DNA from: Promethearchaeia archaeon
GTDB lineage: Archaea > Asgardarchaeota > Lokiarchaeia > Sigyniarchaeales > SOKP01
Assembly (NCBI GenBank): GCA_046497275.1
Contig: JAWOFX010000056.1
Coordinates: forward strand, 1-6,010
DNA length: 6,010 nucleotides
Direction: 5' to 3'
Positions 1-6,010 of the stretch are shown here, one piece after another. Both the position numbers and the translations under genes were made by a program. A model generated the notes under the pieces. The model was not told where the DNA came from, searched no databases, and worked only from the letters and a program-made list of their open reading frames with translations. The stretch's first letter is position 1. Every line of letters begins with the position of its first letter.

Positions 1-96
1 AAATGGCACGACTGCACCAACTGCCACAAATTTGGATTGAACAGCAATACCCCACTCCCGAGTTTTCTTATCAAATGCGACAATTGAAAATGTCAT
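1..96 (-). CDS. DUF1028 family protein (Ntn-hydrolase-like), 5' part only, runs off the left edge
   Basis: Not in the ORF track. The reverse complement from ATG at 96 reads [32 protein letters not shown], matching the typical DUF1028 N-terminus (MTFSIVA-D--TGE-GVAV-SKFLAVGAVVP). Thr2 is the expected N-terminal nucleophile. AAGTGA SD-like motif just upstream. Confidence 0.88.
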
Positions 97-224
97 TGTT
101 ATGATTCACTTTTACTTGATTTTTATATGTATTATATAAAGAAAGTATAATTTGTTTTAGTTTATTATATTTACTTTATTATATTTTGTAACACATTAAA
201 ATTAATTAAAAACTAATTGAAGCT
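97..224. promoter_or_regulatory. Divergent promoter region between DUF1028 and the epimerase gene
   Basis: 128-bp very AT-rich spacer between head-to-head start codons, with several TATA-like stretches (e.g. TTATATAAA around 132-140). Exact elements cannot be assigned. Confidence 0.5.
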
Positions 225-1532: not shown

Positions 1533-1652
1533 ATGAATATGAAAAGAATTAGGAAAGCATTTGGAAAGGACGAGATTAATCATGAGTCTATTAGTAATAT
1601 AAAAAGTAAAATAGACAGCCAAATGATAAGAAATAATATTATAACCTATTAA
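1533..1652 (+). CDS. Small hypothetical protein, 39 aa (MNMKRIRKAFGKDEINHESISNIKSKIDSQMIRNNIITY)
   Basis: Below the ORF-track cutoff. GAGGT SD at 1518-1522 sits 10 nt before ATG 1533; TAA at 1650-1652 is followed immediately by T8-GCG-T9. Alternative start at Met3 (1539). Confidence 0.65.
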   Translation: MNMKRIRKAFGKDEINHESISNIKSKIDSQMIRNNIITY

Positions 1653-1653
1653 A

Positions 1654-1673
1654 TTTTTTTTGCGTTTTTTTTT
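1654..1673 (+). terminator. Oligo-T archaeal-type terminator after the 39-aa ORF
   Basis: TTTTTTTT-GCG-TTTTTTTTT starting 2 nt after the stop codon; the longest T tracts seen in the window. Confidence 0.7.
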
Positions 1674-1765
1674 AAAAATTATTCAGAAAAAATGTGTTAG
1701 TATAACCAAAAATAAAAATAAGAAAAAAAAATAAAGATAAAAGATAAATAAACATAAGAGAGAAA

Positions 1766-2755
1766 ATGAATATAAAAAAGAATAAAGAAGAAGAAAATAT
1801 TATTGAAGAGGAAAACGAAGAAAAGAAGAGTAAAAAAGTGAGTTCCGAGGAGAAGAAAGAGGATTTAGAGGAAACTTTAGAGGATTATGAGGAAGAATAT
1901 GAAGATTTAATGGATGAATTAGAAGACATCAAGGATGAAGTCGAAGATATTTTAGAAGATATAAAAGATTTGGAAGAGAATTTGTTTGAAAAACAACAAG
2001 AAAAAGAGGATGCAGAAACTGAAATTAAAAGACATAAAATAGAAAACAAAATACATGAACTTAAAGAAGAAAAAGCAAAACTTAAGAGCAAACTTGCCAA
2101 CGCAAAGAAGAAAGAGAAAGAAACAGTGAAGAAAATTAAAGATGCAGCCCATAAGATGGAAGAAGCGAGAAAAAAATATGTTCGTATGAATATATCTCTC
2201 CCATCTAACATGAAAGAGGATTGGAAAGATTTAGCTGATGATATCAATACATCCGTTTCAGAATTAATTCGGAGTGCGGTGGGAGCAGTAGGTCCTGTAT
2301 TGAAGAATCTCAAAAGTATAAAGGATTTGGAAAAATTGGGGGATTCAATTGATAAATGGGGTGAAGATCTTGAAATAGAAATTAAAAGGTCTGGAATTGA
2401 GGAGTTAGGTAAAAATTTAGAAATTAAATTTGATAAAGAGTATGAAAGTCCCAGAGCTAAACCACCCAAACCTCCTACACCACCCAAACCACCATCTTAT
2501 CAGAAAAAAAATCTGGAACGGATAAAAAAGCGCATTTATGGATTAATCAAACTACAAAAATCGTTGCCTATTTCAAAATTGGCCCAAGTATTATCAATCT
2601 CAGAGGGAAAGGCAGAGAACCTCATTTATGAATTAGCAGCGGAGGGGATTGAGGGTCAACTAGAGGAAAATGTATTCACATTTAAGAATTCCACAGAAGA
2701 AGTAATCGAAAAAGTATATGAATTAATTGAAAAGATGTATGAAACAGAAGGGTGA
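1766..2755 (+). CDS. Multidomain putative DNA-binding protein: acidic/basic coiled coil + ribbon-helix-helix (CopG/MetJ-like) + Pro-rich linker + C-terminal winged helix (PCI-like), 329 aa
   Basis: Heptads LEDYEEE-YEDLMDE-LEDIKDE-VEDILED-IKDLEEN-L. RHH pattern KYVRMNISLPSNMKEDWKDLADDINTSVSELIRSAV (about 2174-2281). PRAKPPKPPTPPKPP linker (2450-2494). wHTH-like KRIYGLIKLQKSLPISKLAQVLSISEGKAENLIYELAAEGIEGQLEENVFTF. ORF reality is high confidence; domain calls are by eye. Confidence 0.75.
   Translation: MNIKKNKEEENIIEEENEEKKSKKVSSEEKKEDLEETLEDYEEEYEDLMDELEDIKDEVEDILEDIKDLEENLFEKQQEKEDAETEIKRHKIENKIHELKEEKAKLKSKLANAKKKEKETVKKIKDAAHKMEEARKKYVRMNISLPSNMKEDWKDLADDINTSVSELIRSAVGAVGPVLKNLKSIKDLEKLGDSIDKWGEDLEIEIKRSGIEELGKNLEIKFDKEYESPRAKPPKPPTPPKPPSYQKKNLERIKKRIYGLIKLQKSLPISKLAQVLSISEGKAENLIYELAAEGIEGQLEENVFTFKNSTEEVIEKVYELIEKMYETEG
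2751..2755 (+). promoter_or_regulatory. Shine-Dalgarno GGTGA of the MFS gene, overlapping the stop codon of the upstream gene
   Basis: GGTGA at 2751-2755 contains the TGA stop (2753-2755); ATG follows at 2760. Confidence 0.7.
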
Positions 2756-2759
2756 AAAT

Positions 2760-4052
2760 ATGGAAATAGAGCCAACAAATAAATCATTTAAAGATTATTT
2801 AATTTTTTGGTCAGGACAACTTTTTTCTTTACTTGGATCCATTGTTATTCAGTTTGTTATGATTTGGTGGATAGAAATCAAATATTCGAATGTTTTATAT
2901 CTATCATTAGCGAGCTTTTTCTTTATTTTACCCATGGTAGTTTTGATGCCTTTAGGGGGAGTTCTATCTGACCGATATAGCAAGAGAAAGTTAATTTTTA
3001 CCGTAGATTCCCTTCAAGCTTTTGTAACTTTTATTTTAATTATCATATTCACATTAAATTTGGGATCTATCTGGATCGTATTCATATTCATTATACTTAG
3101 AAGCAGTCTTCAAGCCATCCATCAACCGGTGGTAAGTTCTATAGCTCCTTCTATGGTTCCCAAAGATAAATTGAGTCGGATTAACGGGATAAATTTTCTT
3201 TTTTCAGGATTGATTCAATTAATAGGACAGCCATTAGGAGCATTGTTATATTTTCTTCTTCCTTTCAATCAAATTTTCTGGATTGACATTGGAACATTTT
3301 TAATATCCGTAATCCCCTTAGCTTTAATAAGGATTCCTAAAGTGAGAGAAATTGATATATTAGATAAGTTGAATGTGAAGTCATTTATTAAGGATCTTAA
3401 GGAAGGTTTCGCAATTTTAAAGGCAATACCAGGTTTATTGATTTTATTATTCGTGAGTGTTTTAGCTAATTTTCTTTTACAACCCGTAAATGTCTTATTA
3501 GCAAATTATATTCACACAATTCATGGAGGAGCGGAATTTGAGTATAGTTTAATTTCATTATTAATGAATGCTGGTTTTATTTTTGGAGCAGGAATAACTT
3601 CAATCAAAAAGAAATGGAATCGGAAGATTTTAACTATGCTTTTAGGAATAATAATAGTAGGAATCGGATATGCACTATTAGCTTTTATCCCAACTGGAGC
3701 GTTTTTAATAATAGGGGGAATCTTTTTTGTATTTGGAAGTATATTACCTATAATAAACACAATTTATCAAACAATATTGCAAATATCCGTTCCAAAAGAT
3801 AAAATTGGTCGCGTATCATCTCTTGATATGACTTTTTCAATGATGGCCTCTCCAATCGGAAGTTTAATTTCTGGACCGATCGCAATTATAATCTCTGTTG
3901 AGGCGCTTTTTTTAAGTTCTGGATTAATTCTTATAGGCCTAATAGGTTCAATATACCTTTTTACTAATATACGCCATATAAGATATGAAGAAGAAGCCAC
4001 AGAAATGGAAAGTATCGAAAAAAAAATGCAAAAATTGGATAAAATAATATAA
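2760..4052 (+). CDS. MFS transporter, DHA3/MefA-like (macrolide-efflux-type) exporter, 430 aa
   Basis: About 12 hydrophobic helices, FWSGQLFSLLGS TM1 signature, motif A GGVLSDRYSKRK, SINGINF/GRVSS loop motifs. Start moved from 2727 to ATG 2760 (MEIEPTNK) because of the GGTGA SD and to avoid overlap with the upstream CDS. Confidence 0.93.
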   Translation: MEIEPTNKSFKDYLIFWSGQLFSLLGSIVIQFVMIWWIEIKYSNVLYLSLASFFFILPMVVLMPLGGVLSDRYSKRKLIFTVDSLQAFVTFILIIIFTLNLGSIWIVFIFIILRSSLQAIHQPVVSSIAPSMVPKDKLSRINGINFLFSGLIQLIGQPLGALLYFLLPFNQIFWIDIGTFLISVIPLALIRIPKVREIDILDKLNVKSFIKDLKEGFAILKAIPGLLILLFVSVLANFLLQPVNVLLANYIHTIHGGAEFEYSLISLLMNAGFIFGAGITSIKKKWNRKILTMLLGIIIVGIGYALLAFIPTGAFLIIGGIFFVFGSILPIINTIYQTILQISVPKDKIGRVSSLDMTFSMMASPIGSLISGPIAIIISVEALFLSSGLILIGLIGSIYLFTNIRHIRYEEEATEMESIEKKMQKLDKII

Positions 4053-4108
4053 TAACAGAAGGAATCTTTCATTCAAATGCTAATGAGCAATTATTAAATT
4101 TATCTATC

Positions 4109-4139
4109 TTTTTGAAGTTCTTTAATTTTTTAATTTTTT
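4109..4139 (+). terminator. T-tract putative terminator after the MFS gene
   Basis: T5 (4109-4113), T6 (4126-4131) and T6 (4134-4139) downstream of the stop at 4052. May overlap the promoter of the next gene. Confidence 0.4.
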
Positions 4140-4185
4140 ATAATATTAAAACAAATTTTTTATTTATTCAAGTCTAATCCTATTT

Positions 4186-5466
4186 GTGAATTTCAACTCA
4201 TATCCTTATGTCCCAAATTATATTATTCTAAGGAAATATAAAAATCATAATATTTACGATTTATATAACGATGAATCTTATATTATAGATGAAGAAGCTT
4301 ATGAAATATTGAAATCTGCGGATGGCTTAAATACAATAAGTCAAATTGTGGAAAACTTTCCAGATAATAAAAAAAACATAGTGTTAAAGGGCATAGAACA
4401 ATTTGAACAGCTCGGAATTATAAAAGTGAGCTCATCGAAAATTTTAAGCGAGCAGATAAAATCACTTCAACATATTAACATCCCCAATGATAATCCGTTC
4501 AAACCTCCATATCTCAAAAATCTTATGATTAATATCACTGAACGTTGTAATCTTTCATGCAAACATTGCTATATCACAGAAAAAAATAAGATTGATATGC
4601 CCTTAAAAGATATAATATCCATTATAAATGATTTTTATAAATATCAAGGCATTAGACTAATTTTAACTGGAGGAGAACCGTTATTATACTCTCAATTTAA
4701 AGAATTATTGACTAAACTAACATTAATCCCCCTCCAAAAAGTAATATTAACGAATGGGGTATTAATTAGCGAAATAGAAGAAGAAACACTTAATCTCTTG
4801 AAAAAAAATTATTTTGAGGTATTTGTAAGTATAGATGGGTTGGAAAAAAGTCATAATGATTTTAGAAACGCAAATAGTTTTAATGCTACTATCAAAGGAA
4901 TTAAAAAATTACTCAATAATGATATAACAGTATCTATAAATACAATGGTCCATAAGCAAAATCTTGATGAATTTGAAGGAATTTATAAGATAATTTCAGA
5001 TTTGGGAAAGATCAGAAACTGGTCAATTGATATTCCCACCTTTGATGAAGAGACTCCTAAAAAAATTAGAGAGAAATATGAAATATCCTATGAGGAGGGC
5101 GGAGAAGTATTGAAGAATTATGGATGGGGTGTAATCTATGAAACTCCTTCGGAAGGAGAAGAAGTTGATTATGCGTGCGGCCCTTATCTGATGGCCGTGG
5201 ATGTAATAGGTAATATAACAAAATGTGGTTTCAATTTTTATGATGAGAGTGTTGGAAATGTGTTCAAATTAGGGTTGAAAAAAAGTTGGGAATTAATTCA
5301 AGAAAATCTCAATTGGTCCATTCAAGATCTTGAATGTACCAAAATAGAATGTGAATACTTAAATGAGTGTAGAGGGGGATGCCGTTATCGTGCACTACAA
5401 CATACTGGTGAGATTCACGGAATTGATTCATTTAAATGTTATCAGTTTGGAAAATTAAAAAATTAG
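4186..5466 (+). CDS. Radical SAM/SPASM domain protein with N-terminal PqqD/RRE-like winged-helix domain, 426 aa
   Basis: CxxxCxxC (ITERCNLSCKHCY), LTGGEPLL, TNG and VSIDG motifs. SPASM with 7 Cys: C-x10-G-x4-C ... C-x4-C-x5-C-x3-C-x18-C. N-terminal ~80 aa (YIIDEEAYEILKSADGLNTISQIVENF...IEQFEQLGII) fits the PqqD/RRE pattern. Start is GTG; the upstream in-frame stop is at 4147-4149. Confidence 0.93.
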   Translation: MNFNSYPYVPNYIILRKYKNHNIYDLYNDESYIIDEEAYEILKSADGLNTISQIVENFPDNKKNIVLKGIEQFEQLGIIKVSSSKILSEQIKSLQHINIPNDNPFKPPYLKNLMINITERCNLSCKHCYITEKNKIDMPLKDIISIINDFYKYQGIRLILTGGEPLLYSQFKELLTKLTLIPLQKVILTNGVLISEIEEETLNLLKKNYFEVFVSIDGLEKSHNDFRNANSFNATIKGIKKLLNNDITVSINTMVHKQNLDEFEGIYKIISDLGKIRNWSIDIPTFDEETPKKIREKYEISYEEGGEVLKNYGWGVIYETPSEGEEVDYACGPYLMAVDVIGNITKCGFNFYDESVGNVFKLGLKKSWELIQENLNWSIQDLECTKIECEYLNECRGGCRYRALQHTGEIHGIDSFKCYQFGKLKN

Positions 5467-5523
5467 TATCAAATAACAATTTTAAATTTTAATTTCATAA
5501 AAAATGTGAAAAGTGATTATAAT

Positions 5524-5769
5524 ATGGCTAAAAAACATAAAATTCTAAGAACAGAAGAGGATATAAGCCCTCTAAATCGAAAATTAATTAACGCTGTGTG
5601 TCATAAATGTAATTTCTATGCTGAGGATCAAGAATATTGGGAAAGGGAATATGAGTGTGGAGCCTATAAACTTATTAGGCAGATGGTTAAAGAAGACATG
5701 ATTACTATCGATGATATAGAGAATTTTTTTACAAGAGTGGATTTGAATCCTGAAAGAGAACTAAGATAA
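5524..5769 (+). CDS. Small Cys-containing hypothetical protein (CxxC-x15-C), 81 aa
   Basis: ATG 5524 is preceded by AAGTGA (5510-5515) and is preferred over GTG 5506. Protein-like composition with VCHKCNFYAEDQEYWEREYECGAYKLIRQMV. Confidence 0.8.
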   Translation: MAKKHKILRTEEDISPLNRKLINAVCHKCNFYAEDQEYWEREYECGAYKLIRQMVKEDMITIDDIENFFTRVDLNPERELR

Positions 5770-5917: not shown

Positions 5918-6010
5918 ATGATTCTAAAAAGAATAAAAAGCGAAGGTTTAGCCCATATATCATATTTTCTTGCGTCCGAAAATGAAGCTTGTGTAGTGGA
6001 TCCTCGGAGG
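5918..6010 (+). CDS. MBL-fold metallo-hydrolase (persulfide dioxygenase/hydroxyacylglutathione hydrolase-like, often rhodanese-fused), 5' part only
   Basis: Not in the ORF track. ATG 5918 reads MILKRIKSEGLAHISYFLASENEACVVDPRR, matching the conserved N-terminus (S-GLAH-SY------EA-VIDPRRD) of this MBL subfamily. Truncated by the window end, so the HxHxDH motif is not visible. Confidence 0.85.
   Translation, partial: MILKRIKSEGLAHISYFLASENEACVVDPRR

What the first reader, a model, noticed from the sequence alone, without database searches (positions are those of the whole stretch)
1533..5769. Candidate archaeal (probably Asgard) RiPP-like locus: RRE-radical SAM/SPASM, two small-peptide candidates, MFS exporter and RHH regulator
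Seen: five co-oriented genes, namely a 39-aa ORF, an RHH/wH protein, an MFS exporter, an rSAM/SPASM with a PqqD/RRE-like N-terminus, and an 81-aa Cys/aromatic protein. Established: RRE-rSAM-SPASM enzymes (PqqE, MftC, AlbA, CteB, SuiB types) modify ribosomal peptides, usually encoded nearby, often with an exporter. Inference: the set could make and export a cross-linked peptide. No known precursor motif (PqqA, MftA, SCIFF) is visible, so the system would be uncharacterised. Caveat: likely terminators at 1654-1673 and 4109-4139 split the cluster into several transcripts, so the adjacency could be coincidental.
Basis: partly seen in the sequence, partly recalled or inferred. Interest (0 to 1): 0.72.

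Follow-up and report, generated by a model that had tools for sequence, protein, structure and literature searches.

The report
Radical-SAM maturase with conserved 3-Cys partner
Only two of the five flagged genes belong together: a peptide-modifying radical-SAM enzyme and an 81-residue three-cysteine protein, which with a tiny cysteine-rich peptide gene 9.3 kb upstream form an undescribed three-part system shared by Asgard archaea, Methanoperedens, Archaeoglobi and syntrophic bacteria.

Summary

The five-gene "RiPP export locus" does not hold. The 39-aa ORF, the coiled-coil/RHH protein and the MFS recur only in one 91%-identical relative.

The enzyme and the 81-aa protein are conserved together:
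- Both occur in 21 of 301 Asgard genomes sampled, usually adjacent.
- 69 of 72 loci from Syntrophaceae/Thermodesulfobacteriota, Methanoperedens and Archaeoglobaceae hold both.

A third part lies outside the window. It is a 20-42-aa peptide, MKIxKVxK…CKCxxxC, here (CKCGGGC)x3 on contig C164, which overlaps the window start by 191 nt. It is in 18 of the 21 Asgard genomes with the pair and in all five outside genomes tested.

Best reading (0.6): the enzyme binds the Lys-rich leader and cross-links the peptide's cysteines. The folded, novel-fold 81-aa protein is an obligatory partner of unresolved role (co-substrate, scaffold or metal site). No family model or paper I searched describes the system. 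This scan flagged the peptide on this genome (e1-5426339), and what looks like the same trio elsewhere (e1-5032041).

The parts
4186..5466 (+). RRE-radical SAM-SPASM enzyme, 426 aa (GTG start)
   Evidence: Pfam Radical_SAM E 6.8e-23. AF2 pLDDT 91.3. Best solved folds are SkfB Z 25.0, SuiB Z 24.5 over model residues 7-424, anSME and CteB. More than 90 full-length Asgard homologues.
4186..4440 (+). N-terminal RRE-like winged-helix domain (residues 1-85)
   Evidence: Predicted strands 6-8, 13-17, 21-25 and 30-34, then helices 36-43, 51-56 and 60-75. It is included in the whole-chain superpositions on SuiB and TigE. The best PDB sequence hits of its profile are the TigE N-terminus and PqqD, each at E 0.1 only.
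4546..4569 (+). CX3CX2C radical SAM cluster motif (C121, C125, C128)
   Evidence: Direct reading; invariant in 36 homologues.
5176..5439 (+). SPASM region with seven cysteines: C331-x10-G-x4-C347 ... C384-x4-C389-x5-C395-x3-C399 ... C418
   Evidence: Direct reading; all seven are invariant. Superpositions on SPASM enzymes run to residues 420-426.
5467..5523 (+). 57-nt spacer between the enzyme gene and the 81-aa gene
   Evidence: Contigs of RNA libraries from two studies run across it, for example X5 record 15 at 5172-5701. This fits co-transcription but does not prove it.
5524..5769 (+). 81-aa three-cysteine helical protein, the conserved partner of the enzyme
   Evidence: 116 homologues at 64-99% identity, all Asgard. 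Found in the same 21 genomes as the enzyme. AF2 pLDDT 86.5 with three helices. No solved fold matches: best Z 3.8. The profile reaches bacterial and euryarchaeal relatives, which sit beside orthologous enzymes.
5599..5658 (+). Cys-bounded loop C26-x2-C29-x-F31-Y32 ... C45 of the 81-aa protein
   Evidence: C26, C29, F31 and C45 are the only invariant positions across Asgard, euryarchaeal and bacterial members.
4110..4139 (+). Oligo-T runs after the MFS gene, a likely archaeal terminator that sets the enzyme gene apart
   Evidence: Sequence read. That archaeal RNA polymerase terminates at oligo-T is established knowledge.
1654..1673 (+). Oligo-T runs (T8 GCG T9) after the 39-aa ORF
   Evidence: Sequence read.
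2727..4052 (+). MFS transporter (DHA3/Mef/EntS-like), a bystander and not part of the conserved system
   Evidence: MFS_1 E 6e-32. Among 89 loci it is found only in the window and in L009.
1766..2755 (+). 329-aa acidic coiled-coil protein with weak RHH-like and winged-helix-like stretches, a bystander
   Evidence: Found only in L009.
1533..1652 (+). 39-aa ORF, probably not a gene
   Evidence: Found only in L009, with 1 synonymous against 4 non-synonymous codon changes. No family hit.

Best explanation
Window 4186-5769 encodes two of the three conserved parts of an undescribed radical-SAM peptide-maturation system.

- Part 1 is an RRE-radical SAM-SPASM enzyme.
- Part 2 is a folded, acidic 81-aa protein whose only family-wide invariants are three cysteines and one phenylalanine.
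- Part 3 lies off the window. It is a tiny peptide with a Lys-rich leader (MKIxKVxK) and a C-terminal CKCxxxC core. In this genome it reads MKIVKKEKTTSAA(CKCGGGC)x3 at G000:C164:902-1021, on the same strand and about 9.3 kb upstream of the enzyme gene.

Proposed working, all of it inferred:
- The RRE holds the basic leader.
- The radical SAM site abstracts a hydrogen atom, and with the two SPASM clusters it forms cross-links at the core cysteines. Thioethers of the sacti/ranthi type are the most likely.
- The 81-aa protein is needed alongside as a co-substrate/acceptor, a scaffold or a metal-binding helper. Which of these is not resolved.
- No protease or exporter travels with the system, so the product probably stays in the cell.

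The MFS, the coiled-coil/RHH protein and the 39-aa ORF are unrelated neighbours.
For: Shown here.

(1) Enzyme architecture: CX3CX2C plus a seven-Cys SPASM motif, all invariant. The confident model's best matches are peptide- or protein-modifying enzymes: SkfB, SuiB, CteB, anSME, ChlB and TigE. The SuiB and TigE alignments include the N-terminal domain.

(2) Enzyme plus 81-aa protein:
- In 301 Asgard genomes, 22 have the enzyme at E<=1e-40 and 22 match the small protein. 21 genomes have both, mostly head to tail.
- Around homologues of 91%, 69% and 59% identity, only this pair is kept.
- Outside Asgard, 69 of 72 loci found with the small protein carry an orthologous enzyme directly downstream. 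These enzymes are 30-37% identical, nearly all over the full length.

(3) Tiny peptide:
- M1, K8, C14, K15, C16 and C20 are invariant from bacteria to Asgard.
- It lies within 3 kb of the pair in 32 of 37 bacterial, 10 of 28 Methanoperedens-type and 6 of 7 Archaeoglobi-type loci.
- It is present in 20 of 301 Asgard genomes, 18 of which hold the pair.
- It is present elsewhere in all five outside genomes tested, including ones that lack it beside the pair.
- In the own genome it occurs once, on C164, whose last 191 nt equal window 1-191.

(4) Charges fit the model: leader +3 and whole peptide +6, against RRE -3 and 81-aa protein -3.

(5) Contigs of RNA libraries from two studies span the enzyme/81-aa junction.

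Published precedent: an archaeal RRE-rSAM-SPASM enzyme (CrpC) installs ranthionine cross-links on a Cys-rich protein (PMC13692751).
Against: - No chemistry has been shown.
- CKC/CxxC motifs are classic metal sites, so both small products could be metal or Fe-S binders rather than cross-link substrates.
- In this genome the peptide gene is 9.3 kb from the enzyme, and in some Asgard families it is 10-96 kb away or on another contig.
- Three Asgard genomes with the pair gave no peptide match: G183, G117 and G165.
- The 81-aa protein is predicted to be a compact folded domain and is conserved over its whole length. That leaves its role open.
- Sequence evidence for the RRE is weak: PqqD in 4 of 38 members at E>=0.048.
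Confidence: 0.6

Rival explanations
1. The 81-aa protein is itself the substrate, or a second substrate. The enzyme cross-links its Cys-bounded loop (C26/C29 ... C45), giving a modified small protein, as QhpD does with QhpC or CrpC with CrpA.
For: - It is the enzyme's most constant neighbour.
- It is duplicated in tandem after one enzyme gene in one Asgard family and fused into a two-domain protein in another, as substrates often are.
- One genome holds an extra copy with no enzyme match in the stretch fetched around it (L094).
- Loki-type members carry a Lys-rich N-terminal extension (MAKKHKILRTEED) that is absent elsewhere and loosely resembles the peptide leader. This last point is inference only.
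- A protein substrate has precedent in PMC13692751.
Against: - It is predicted to be a compact three-helix domain at pLDDT 86.5.
- There is no split into leader and core.
- Only three Cys and one Phe are invariant, and the loop between them varies in length. No acceptor residue is conserved.
- A far more precursor-like peptide co-occurs with the system.
Confidence: 0.22
2. The enzyme works on a non-peptide substrate such as a lipid, isoprenoid or cofactor intermediate, possibly together with the co-distributed CrtI-family flavoenzyme. The two small Cys products serve as metal, Fe-S or sulfur carriers for it.
For: - A CrtI/phytoene-desaturase-family FAD enzyme of one orthogroup (33-36% mutual identity) lies next to the system in some Asgard, Syntrophaceae and Methanoperedens loci.
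- It is found in 19 of 301 Asgard genomes, 16 of which hold the pair.
- Two-domain bacterial relatives of the small protein have a four-Cys second domain that looks like a metal site. The one looked up (P0324) is not beside a radical SAM gene.
- Some loci have NifU or rhodanese genes nearby.
Against: - The fused RRE and the nearest solved folds all point to peptide or protein substrates.
- The flavoenzyme link is facultative. No match at E<=1e-20 was found in Methanoperedens Mnv1, which has two copies of the pair.
- The own genome has at least eight matching places for CrtI-like proteins, so chance adjacency is easy.
Confidence: 0.1
3. One reading: the 39-aa ORF, RHH regulator, MFS exporter, rSAM and 81-aa protein form one locus that makes and exports a cross-linked peptide.
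For: The five ORFs are co-oriented. The same arrangement is present in the 91%-identical relative L009. The MFS is of an efflux type.
Against: - The MFS, the RHH protein and the 39-aa ORF are absent around the 69% and 59% homologues and from the 87 other loci.
- Oligo-T runs separate the units.
- The 39-aa ORF shows no sign of selection.
- L009 is collinear with the window at 91% nucleotide identity over its whole length, so it is not independent evidence.
Confidence: 0.04

Closest known systems
SCIFF peptide with its maturase CteB (ranthipeptide system of Clostridia; NCBIfam TIGR03973/TIGR03974; PDB 5why)
   Same: A short, strongly conserved Cys-rich peptide is paired with an RRE-rSAM-SPASM enzyme that has a seven-Cys SPASM motif. 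No dedicated protease or exporter is conserved with it. Its distribution looks housekeeping-like within some anaerobe lineages. CteB is among the best fold matches.
   Different: No model reaches its cut-off. TIGR03974 scores 60 bits against a cut-off of 425 on the Helarchaeota relative, and it is not among the 25 best families shown of 82 for the window enzyme. The peptide is 20-42 aa with a CKCxxxC core, not six Cys in 45 residues. A third conserved protein, the 81-aa three-Cys protein, has no SCIFF counterpart.
CrpC/CrpA of Methanococcus voltae (TIGR04463; PMC13692751, 2026)
   Same: An archaeal RRE-rSAM-SPASM enzyme with three [4Fe-4S] clusters was shown to install ranthionine thioethers on a Cys-rich protein encoded beside it. 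Substrate engagement there goes beyond the RRE-leader contact.
   Different: TIGR04463 (cut-off 525 bits) does not match the window enzyme at all in the own genome. CrpA is a large protein with ten 17-residue repeats. Here the candidates are a 39-aa peptide and an 81-aa helical protein.
SuiB/SuiA (streptide, Lys-Trp cross-link; PDB 5v1q/5v1s/5v1t)
   Same: It gives one of the best full-length structural superpositions, N-terminal RRE included: Z 24.0-24.5 with 380-388 residues aligned.
   Different: Identity is 16-21%. To my knowledge SuiB's auxiliary clusters are fully Cys-ligated. The substrate and the chemistry are unrelated.
PqqE/PqqD/PqqA and MftC/MftB/MftA (peptide-derived redox cofactors)
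   Same: An rSAM-SPASM enzyme with an RRE acts on a very conserved small peptide. Oxidoreductases are co-distributed. The product stays in the cell.
   Different: MftC TIGR03962 scores 72 bits against a cut-off of 265 on the window enzyme. PqqE TIGR02109 scores 73.5 bits against 381 on the Archaeoglobus orthologue. There is no PqqA or MftA motif. The conserved residues here are Cys and Lys, not Glu/Tyr or Val-Tyr.
QhpD/QhpC (thioether cross-links within the small gamma subunit of quinohemoprotein amine dehydrogenase)
   Same: An rSAM-SPASM enzyme modifies cysteines of a roughly 80-110-aa protein that remains a protein.
   Different: Not tested by profile here. There is no amine dehydrogenase context, and the 81-aa protein shows no family or fold match to anything solved.

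Membership tests
Radical SAM superfamily (PF04055) | CX3CX2C motif for the SAM-binding [4Fe-4S] cluster, and a partial TIM-barrel core | tested here: met
   PF04055 scores 82.1 bits against a cut-off of 29.5. C121/C125/C128 are invariant. The core superposes on many solved radical SAM enzymes at Z 15-25.
SPASM subfamily of radical SAM enzymes | C-terminal seven-Cys motif CX9-15GX4C ... CX2CX5CX3C ... C for two auxiliary clusters | tested here: met
   The motif reads C331-x10-G342-x4-C347 ... C384-x4-C389-x5-C395-x3-C399 ... C418, and all seven are invariant. The first spacing is x4 rather than x2. Alignments to the SPASM enzymes anSME, SuiB and CteB reach the C-terminus.
SPASM subfamily of radical SAM enzymes | Match to the Pfam SPASM model (PF13186) | tested here: inconclusive
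   PF13186 was not reported at E<=0.1. Only PF04055 and PF13353 were.
RiPP recognition element (PqqD-like, PF05402) | Three-stranded sheet followed by three helices (winged helix) at the N-terminus of the maturase | tested here: met
   The AF2 model has strands at 13-17, 21-25 and 30-34 (plus 6-8) and helices at 36-43, 51-56 and 60-75, at block-mean pLDDT 92-96. This part is included in the whole-chain alignments to the RRE-bearing SuiB (model 5-424) and TigE. The structure is predicted, not solved.
RiPP recognition element (PqqD-like, PF05402) | Significant sequence match to PqqD/RRE profiles | tested here: inconclusive
   PF05402 is hit by 4 of 38 N-terminal domains, best E 0.048. The best PDB hits of the profile are the TigE N-terminus and PqqD, each at E 0.1.
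SCIFF maturase / SCIFF peptide (TIGR03974 / TIGR03973) | Scores above the curated cut-offs for the enzyme and the peptide | tested here: not met
   TIGR03974 scores 60 bits against 425 on the relative P0095. It is not among the 25 best families shown of 82 for the window enzyme. There is no NCBIfam hit for the 81-aa protein beyond chance, and none for the CKC peptides at E<=10.
CrpC family (TIGR04463, rSAM_vs_C_rich) | Score above 525 bits | tested here: not met
   A search of the own genome gives seven weak matches (45 bits or less), none on contig C138.
Mycofactocin maturase MftC (TIGR03962) and PqqE (TIGR02109) | Score above the cut-off, with an MftA or PqqA precursor nearby | tested here: not met
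   TIGR03962 scores 72 bits against 265. TIGR02109 scores 73.5 bits against 381 on the Archaeoglobus orthologue. No such precursor motif is present in the window.
Sactipeptide maturases AlbA (NF012164) and StsB (NF045574) | Score above the cut-off | tested here: not met
   61 bits against 850, and 67 bits against 625.
QhpD/QhpC | QhpD-type enzyme with a QhpC gamma subunit in an amine dehydrogenase operon | not tested
   No QhpD or QhpC profile or sequence was compared here.
Metallothionein (for the off-window CKC peptide) | Match to a metallothionein family, or a metal-gene context | tested here: inconclusive
   The only hit is Pfam Metallothio_2 at E 7 on one peptide. The peptide travels with the radical SAM enzyme. 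Metal binding itself cannot be tested with these tools.

The most novel reading that the evidence does not exclude
The three parts, together with the co-distributed CrtI-family flavoenzyme, make something other than a free modified peptide. One possibility is that the enzyme covalently joins the CKC peptide to the three-Cys protein. Another is that it converts the peptide into a Cys/Lys-derived redox cofactor that the 81-aa protein carries. Either would be a mycofactocin/PQQ-like system of strict anaerobes, shared by Asgard archaea, Methanoperedens, Archaeoglobi and syntrophic bacteria.
Probability: 0.1. Interest if true: 0.85.

Novelty: new variant of a known kind. Interest (0 to 1): 0.62.

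Why it matters
Radical SAM/SPASM maturases with an RRE are known. This family has three unusual traits:
- a precursor of only about 20 residues, conserved across two domains of life;
- an obligatory small protein of unknown fold;
- no export machinery.

It occurs in organisms of wide interest: Asgard archaea, nitrate-dependent methane oxidisers and syntrophs. At least one cultured carrier exists (Archaeoglobus sulfaticallidus PM70-1, gene Asulf_02007), so the system can be tested directly.

If the product is intracellular, as the gene content suggests, it adds to the small set of conserved modified peptides with a cellular rather than antibiotic role. SCIFF, whose function is still unknown, is the nearest example.

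For annotation, the 20-42-aa gene is missing from the gene calls wherever it falls inside the loci with listed gene calls.

Tried and rejected
- Complex prediction of the enzyme with the 81-aa protein returned no answer (score 0.00). It counts neither for nor against binding.
- A search for fused forms of the 81-aa domain longer than 157 aa found none. The tool itself calls this weak evidence.
- Fold searches for the 81-aa model gave no significant PDB match (Foldseek E>=3.4; best VIA Z 3.8). The ESM Atlas gave only unnamed clusters.
- The first related-loci run failed because the alignment was too diverse. It was repeated with a closer subset.
- The weak hit of Asulf_02007 to the C-terminus of TIGR04084 (E 0.024) was not pursued. 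It is probably Cys-motif likeness.
- L009:478-621 (47 aa) was checked as a possible peptide gene and is unrelated.
- No 20-45-aa Cys-rich ORF of the CKC type lies in the window itself.
- The literature searches found nothing on this family: rSAM/SPASM with Asgard or with Methanoperedens, with phytoene desaturase, and archaeal RiPP mining.
- An earlier-findings look-up by sequence with a distant 78-aa member found nothing.
- The codon-change count for the MFS was mis-framed and is discarded.
- RNA-library contigs gave no cover over 1207-1608.
- The MBL-rhodanese gene downstream was considered as a PqqB-like third part. It was rejected because it is absent beside the 59% homologue.

Full report
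**What is in the window**

The 6,010-nt window is the whole of contig C138 of a 3.85-Mb genome (98.9% complete). Homologues of its proteins are labelled Promethearchaeota/Lokiarchaeota.

On the + strand it holds:
- an NAD-dependent sugar epimerase/dehydratase (225-1124);
- a 39-aa ORF (1533-1652);
- a 329-aa acidic coiled-coil protein (1766-2755);
- an MFS transporter (2727-4052);
- a 426-aa radical SAM protein (4186-5466);
- an 81-aa protein (5524-5769);
- the start of a metallo-beta-lactamase/rhodanese gene (5918 onward).

Oligo-T runs follow the 39-aa ORF (1654-1673) and the MFS gene (4110-4139).

**The enzyme**

Pfam gives Radical_SAM at E 6.8e-23. The protein has exactly ten cysteines. 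Three form CX3CX2C (C121/125/128). The other seven form a canonical SPASM pattern: C331-x10-G-x4-C347, C384-x4-C389-x5-C395-x3-C399, and C418. All ten are invariant in 36 homologues down to 33% identity.

An AlphaFold2 model built on that alignment is confident, with pLDDT 91.3 and pTM 0.90. Its best solved matches are peptide- or protein-modifying SPASM or twitch enzymes:
- SkfB, Z 25.0;
- SuiB, Z 24.0-24.5 with 380-388 residues aligned, spanning model residues 5-424;
- anSME, Z 24.5;
- CteB, Z 23.9;
- ChlB and TigE.

Residues 1-85 are predicted as strands followed by three helices, which is the RRE topology. This domain is carried along in the full-length superpositions on the RRE-bearing SuiB and TigE.

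Sequence evidence for the RRE is only suggestive. The best PDB hits of an N-terminal profile are the TigE N-terminus and PqqD, each at E 0.1. Pfam PqqD is hit by 4 of 38 members. None of the NCBIfam equivalogs listed comes near its cut-off: the best is 96 bits against 525. The recently characterised archaeal CrpC family (TIGR04463) does not match this gene.

**Which neighbours are real partners**

I looked up the neighbourhoods of homologues at 91%, 69% and 59% identity. Only the gene for the 81-aa protein stays next to the enzyme.

The MFS, the coiled-coil protein and the 39-aa ORF are present only in the 91% relative. That relative is collinear with the window at 91% nucleotide identity throughout, so it is not independent. 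None of the three was found in any of 87 further loci.

The 39-aa ORF differs from its one counterpart by 1 synonymous and 4 non-synonymous codon changes. The 81-aa gene shows 10 against 5, and the enzyme gene 50 against 39. The RHH and winged-helix calls in the 329-aa protein are sub-threshold. The five-gene locus is thus not a unit.

**The 81-aa protein**

It has 116 homologues, all from Asgard sources. Nearly all are 81 aa long and 64-99% identical, so it is better conserved than the enzyme at 55-60%.

In 301 genomes sampled across the phylum:
- 22 have the enzyme at E<=1e-40, and 22 match the small protein.
- 21 genomes have both.
- The one enzyme-only genome is 80% complete. The one small-protein-only match is a weak hit full of stop codons.
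- Within the window's own family the pair is present or absent by genus: 0/22, 0/28 and 0/4 against 4/4, 4/5 and 2/2.

In most genomes the small gene follows the enzyme gene directly. One family has two tandem copies. Another has a fused two-domain protein 11-20 kb away.

AlphaFold2 predicts a compact three-helix domain at pLDDT 86.5. It has no significant match among solved structures and no Pfam or NCBIfam family.

A profile search of 1.84 billion representatives found 87 clusters. They include bacterial proteins and Archaeoglobus sulfaticallidus Asulf_02007. Across all of these only C26, C29, F31 and C45 are invariant, and the loop between the cysteines varies in length.

The distant members again sit beside an orthologous enzyme. 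This holds in A. sulfaticallidus and in a bacterial metagenome contig, where the enzymes are 31-33% identical over the full length. It holds in 69 of 72 loci from named genomes of Syntrophaceae/Thermodesulfobacteriota, Methanoperedens, Archaeoglobaceae and Hydrothermarchaeales. There the order is small gene then enzyme, often overlapping.

**The third part, outside the window**

I tested this on my own loci.

A scan for short Cys-rich ORFs found one family in bacteria, Methanoperedens, Archaeoglobi and Asgard. Aligned, it reads MKIxKVxK-x4-5-CKCxxxC, with M1, K8, C14, K15, C16 and C20 invariant. Loki-type members carry three CKCGxxC repeats.

A profile of it finds the peptide within 3 kb of the pair in 32 of 37 bacterial, 10 of 28 Methanoperedens-type and 6 of 7 Archaeoglobi-type loci. 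All five outside genomes searched whole have it somewhere, including ones that lack it beside the pair. In the 301 Asgard genomes it is found in 20, of which 18 hold the pair.

The usual Loki-type order is peptide, enzyme, three-Cys protein. G141, G207, G270, G291, G019 and G156 show this order.

The window itself has no such ORF. The genome has exactly one, MKIVKKEKTTSAACKCGGGCVSSSCKCGGGCICKCGGGC, at C164:902-1021. The last 191 nt of C164 are identical to window 1-191. The peptide gene therefore lies on the same strand about 9.3 kb upstream of the enzyme gene, with the unrelated genes in between.

No Pfam or NCBIfam model matches the peptide.

**How it most likely works**

Shown:
- the enzyme's architecture;
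- the three-way co-occurrence and synteny across two domains of life;
- the absence of a conserved protease or transporter.

Inferred:
- The Lys-rich leader (net +3; whole peptide +6) is held by the acidic RRE (net -3).
- The enzyme cross-links the CKCxxxC cysteines. Thioether formation is the best guess because the nearest enzymes of this architecture do that (CteB, SkfB and, in archaea, CrpC; PMC13692751).

The 81-aa protein is required, but its role is open. Its tandem and fused duplicates and its constancy fit a co-substrate. Its compact fold, its whole-length conservation and its lack of a conserved acceptor residue fit a scaffold or metal-binding helper.

Contigs of RNA libraries from two salt-lake studies run across the enzyme/81-aa junction, for example 5172-5701. 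This is compatible with co-transcription but does not prove it.

**A further lead**

One orthogroup of CrtI/phytoene-desaturase-family flavoenzymes (33-36% mutual identity) is adjacent to the system in some Asgard, Syntrophaceae and Methanoperedens loci. It occurs in 19 of 301 Asgard genomes, 16 of which hold the pair. The own-genome copy is on another contig. No match at E<=1e-20 was found in Methanoperedens Mnv1. It may be an optional fourth part, or a sign that the product is more than a cross-linked peptide.

**Comparison and novelty**

The system works like SCIFF/CteB: a conserved Cys peptide plus an RRE-rSAM-SPASM enzyme, with no exporter. It also resembles CrpC/CrpA. It fails the membership tests for both, and for the MftC, PqqE, AlbA and StsB families. 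It adds a protein of unknown fold.

I found no paper on it. I rate it a new variant of a known kind.

The kin caveat applies. The genome counts are samples of related genomes. The strongest argument is recurrence in lineages as far apart as Asgard archaea and Thermodesulfobacteriota.

Noticed in passing
window 1-191 and 5951-6010; G000 contigs C164 and C86: The contig ends overlap. C164:6130-6320 is identical to window 1-191, and the last 60 nt of the window occur reverse-complemented in C86 at 3294 of 3484. The three short contigs are one stretch of genome broken by the assembler.
   Followed up: yes
L020:2915-4000, L067:4303-5862, L029:1776-3413 (-); own genome C118:53189-54286: A CrtI/phytoene-desaturase-family FAD enzyme of one orthogroup lies next to the system in some Asgard, Methanoperedens and Syntrophaceae loci. 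It is co-distributed with the pair in Asgard genomes (19 of 301, 16 shared). It may be an optional fourth part.
   Followed up: partly
L027-L062, e.g. L053:4552-5463 and L048:2011-2850 (-): In Syntrophaceae-type loci an ATP-grasp-like 304-aa gene follows the CKC peptide gene in 31 loci (most of the bacterial set, plus the JGI metagenome locus L024). A NifU-like gene lies upstream on the other strand in 12. This may be shared synteny of related genomes or further parts of the system.
   Followed up: no
window 5918-6010 (continues on C86); L009:9744-11114; L010:9735-11105: A 456-aa metallo-beta-lactamase plus rhodanese fusion (persulfide-dioxygenase-like) follows the 81-aa gene here and beside the 91% and 69% homologues, but not beside the 59% one.
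   Followed up: partly
G135:C187:5740-6699 and G291:C78:10898-11854 (L021): In two genomes of the window's family the enzyme match stops at about residue 321, inside open frames of 448 and 467 aa. The SPASM end is divergent or carries an insertion.
   Followed up: no
P0255, P0249, P0262, P0324; L025:6001-6357: Two-domain bacterial relatives of the three-Cys protein have a second domain with four cysteines (CxxC-x5-6-C ... C). The one looked up (P0324) sits beside a UbiE-type methyltransferase and not a radical SAM gene. The domain family is wider than the radical SAM system.
   Followed up: partly
G019:C124:2826-2942 and C275:25128-25244; G301:C7 and C73: Some genomes carry two copies of the CKC peptide gene. 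Methanoperedens Mnv1 also has two copies of the enzyme/three-Cys pair (L064, L077).
   Followed up: no
window 1766-2755: A 329-aa protein combines a very acidic coiled-coil N-terminus, an RHH-like stretch, a Pro/Lys linker (KPPKPPTPPKPP) and a PCI-like winged helix. It was found in only one close relative among the 89 loci examined.
   Followed up: partly
window 1-96 (-); C164:5371-6225 (-): A DUF1028-family gene (Pfam hits DUF1028 and PG_binding_2 on the L009 homologue) runs off the left end of the window.
   Followed up: no
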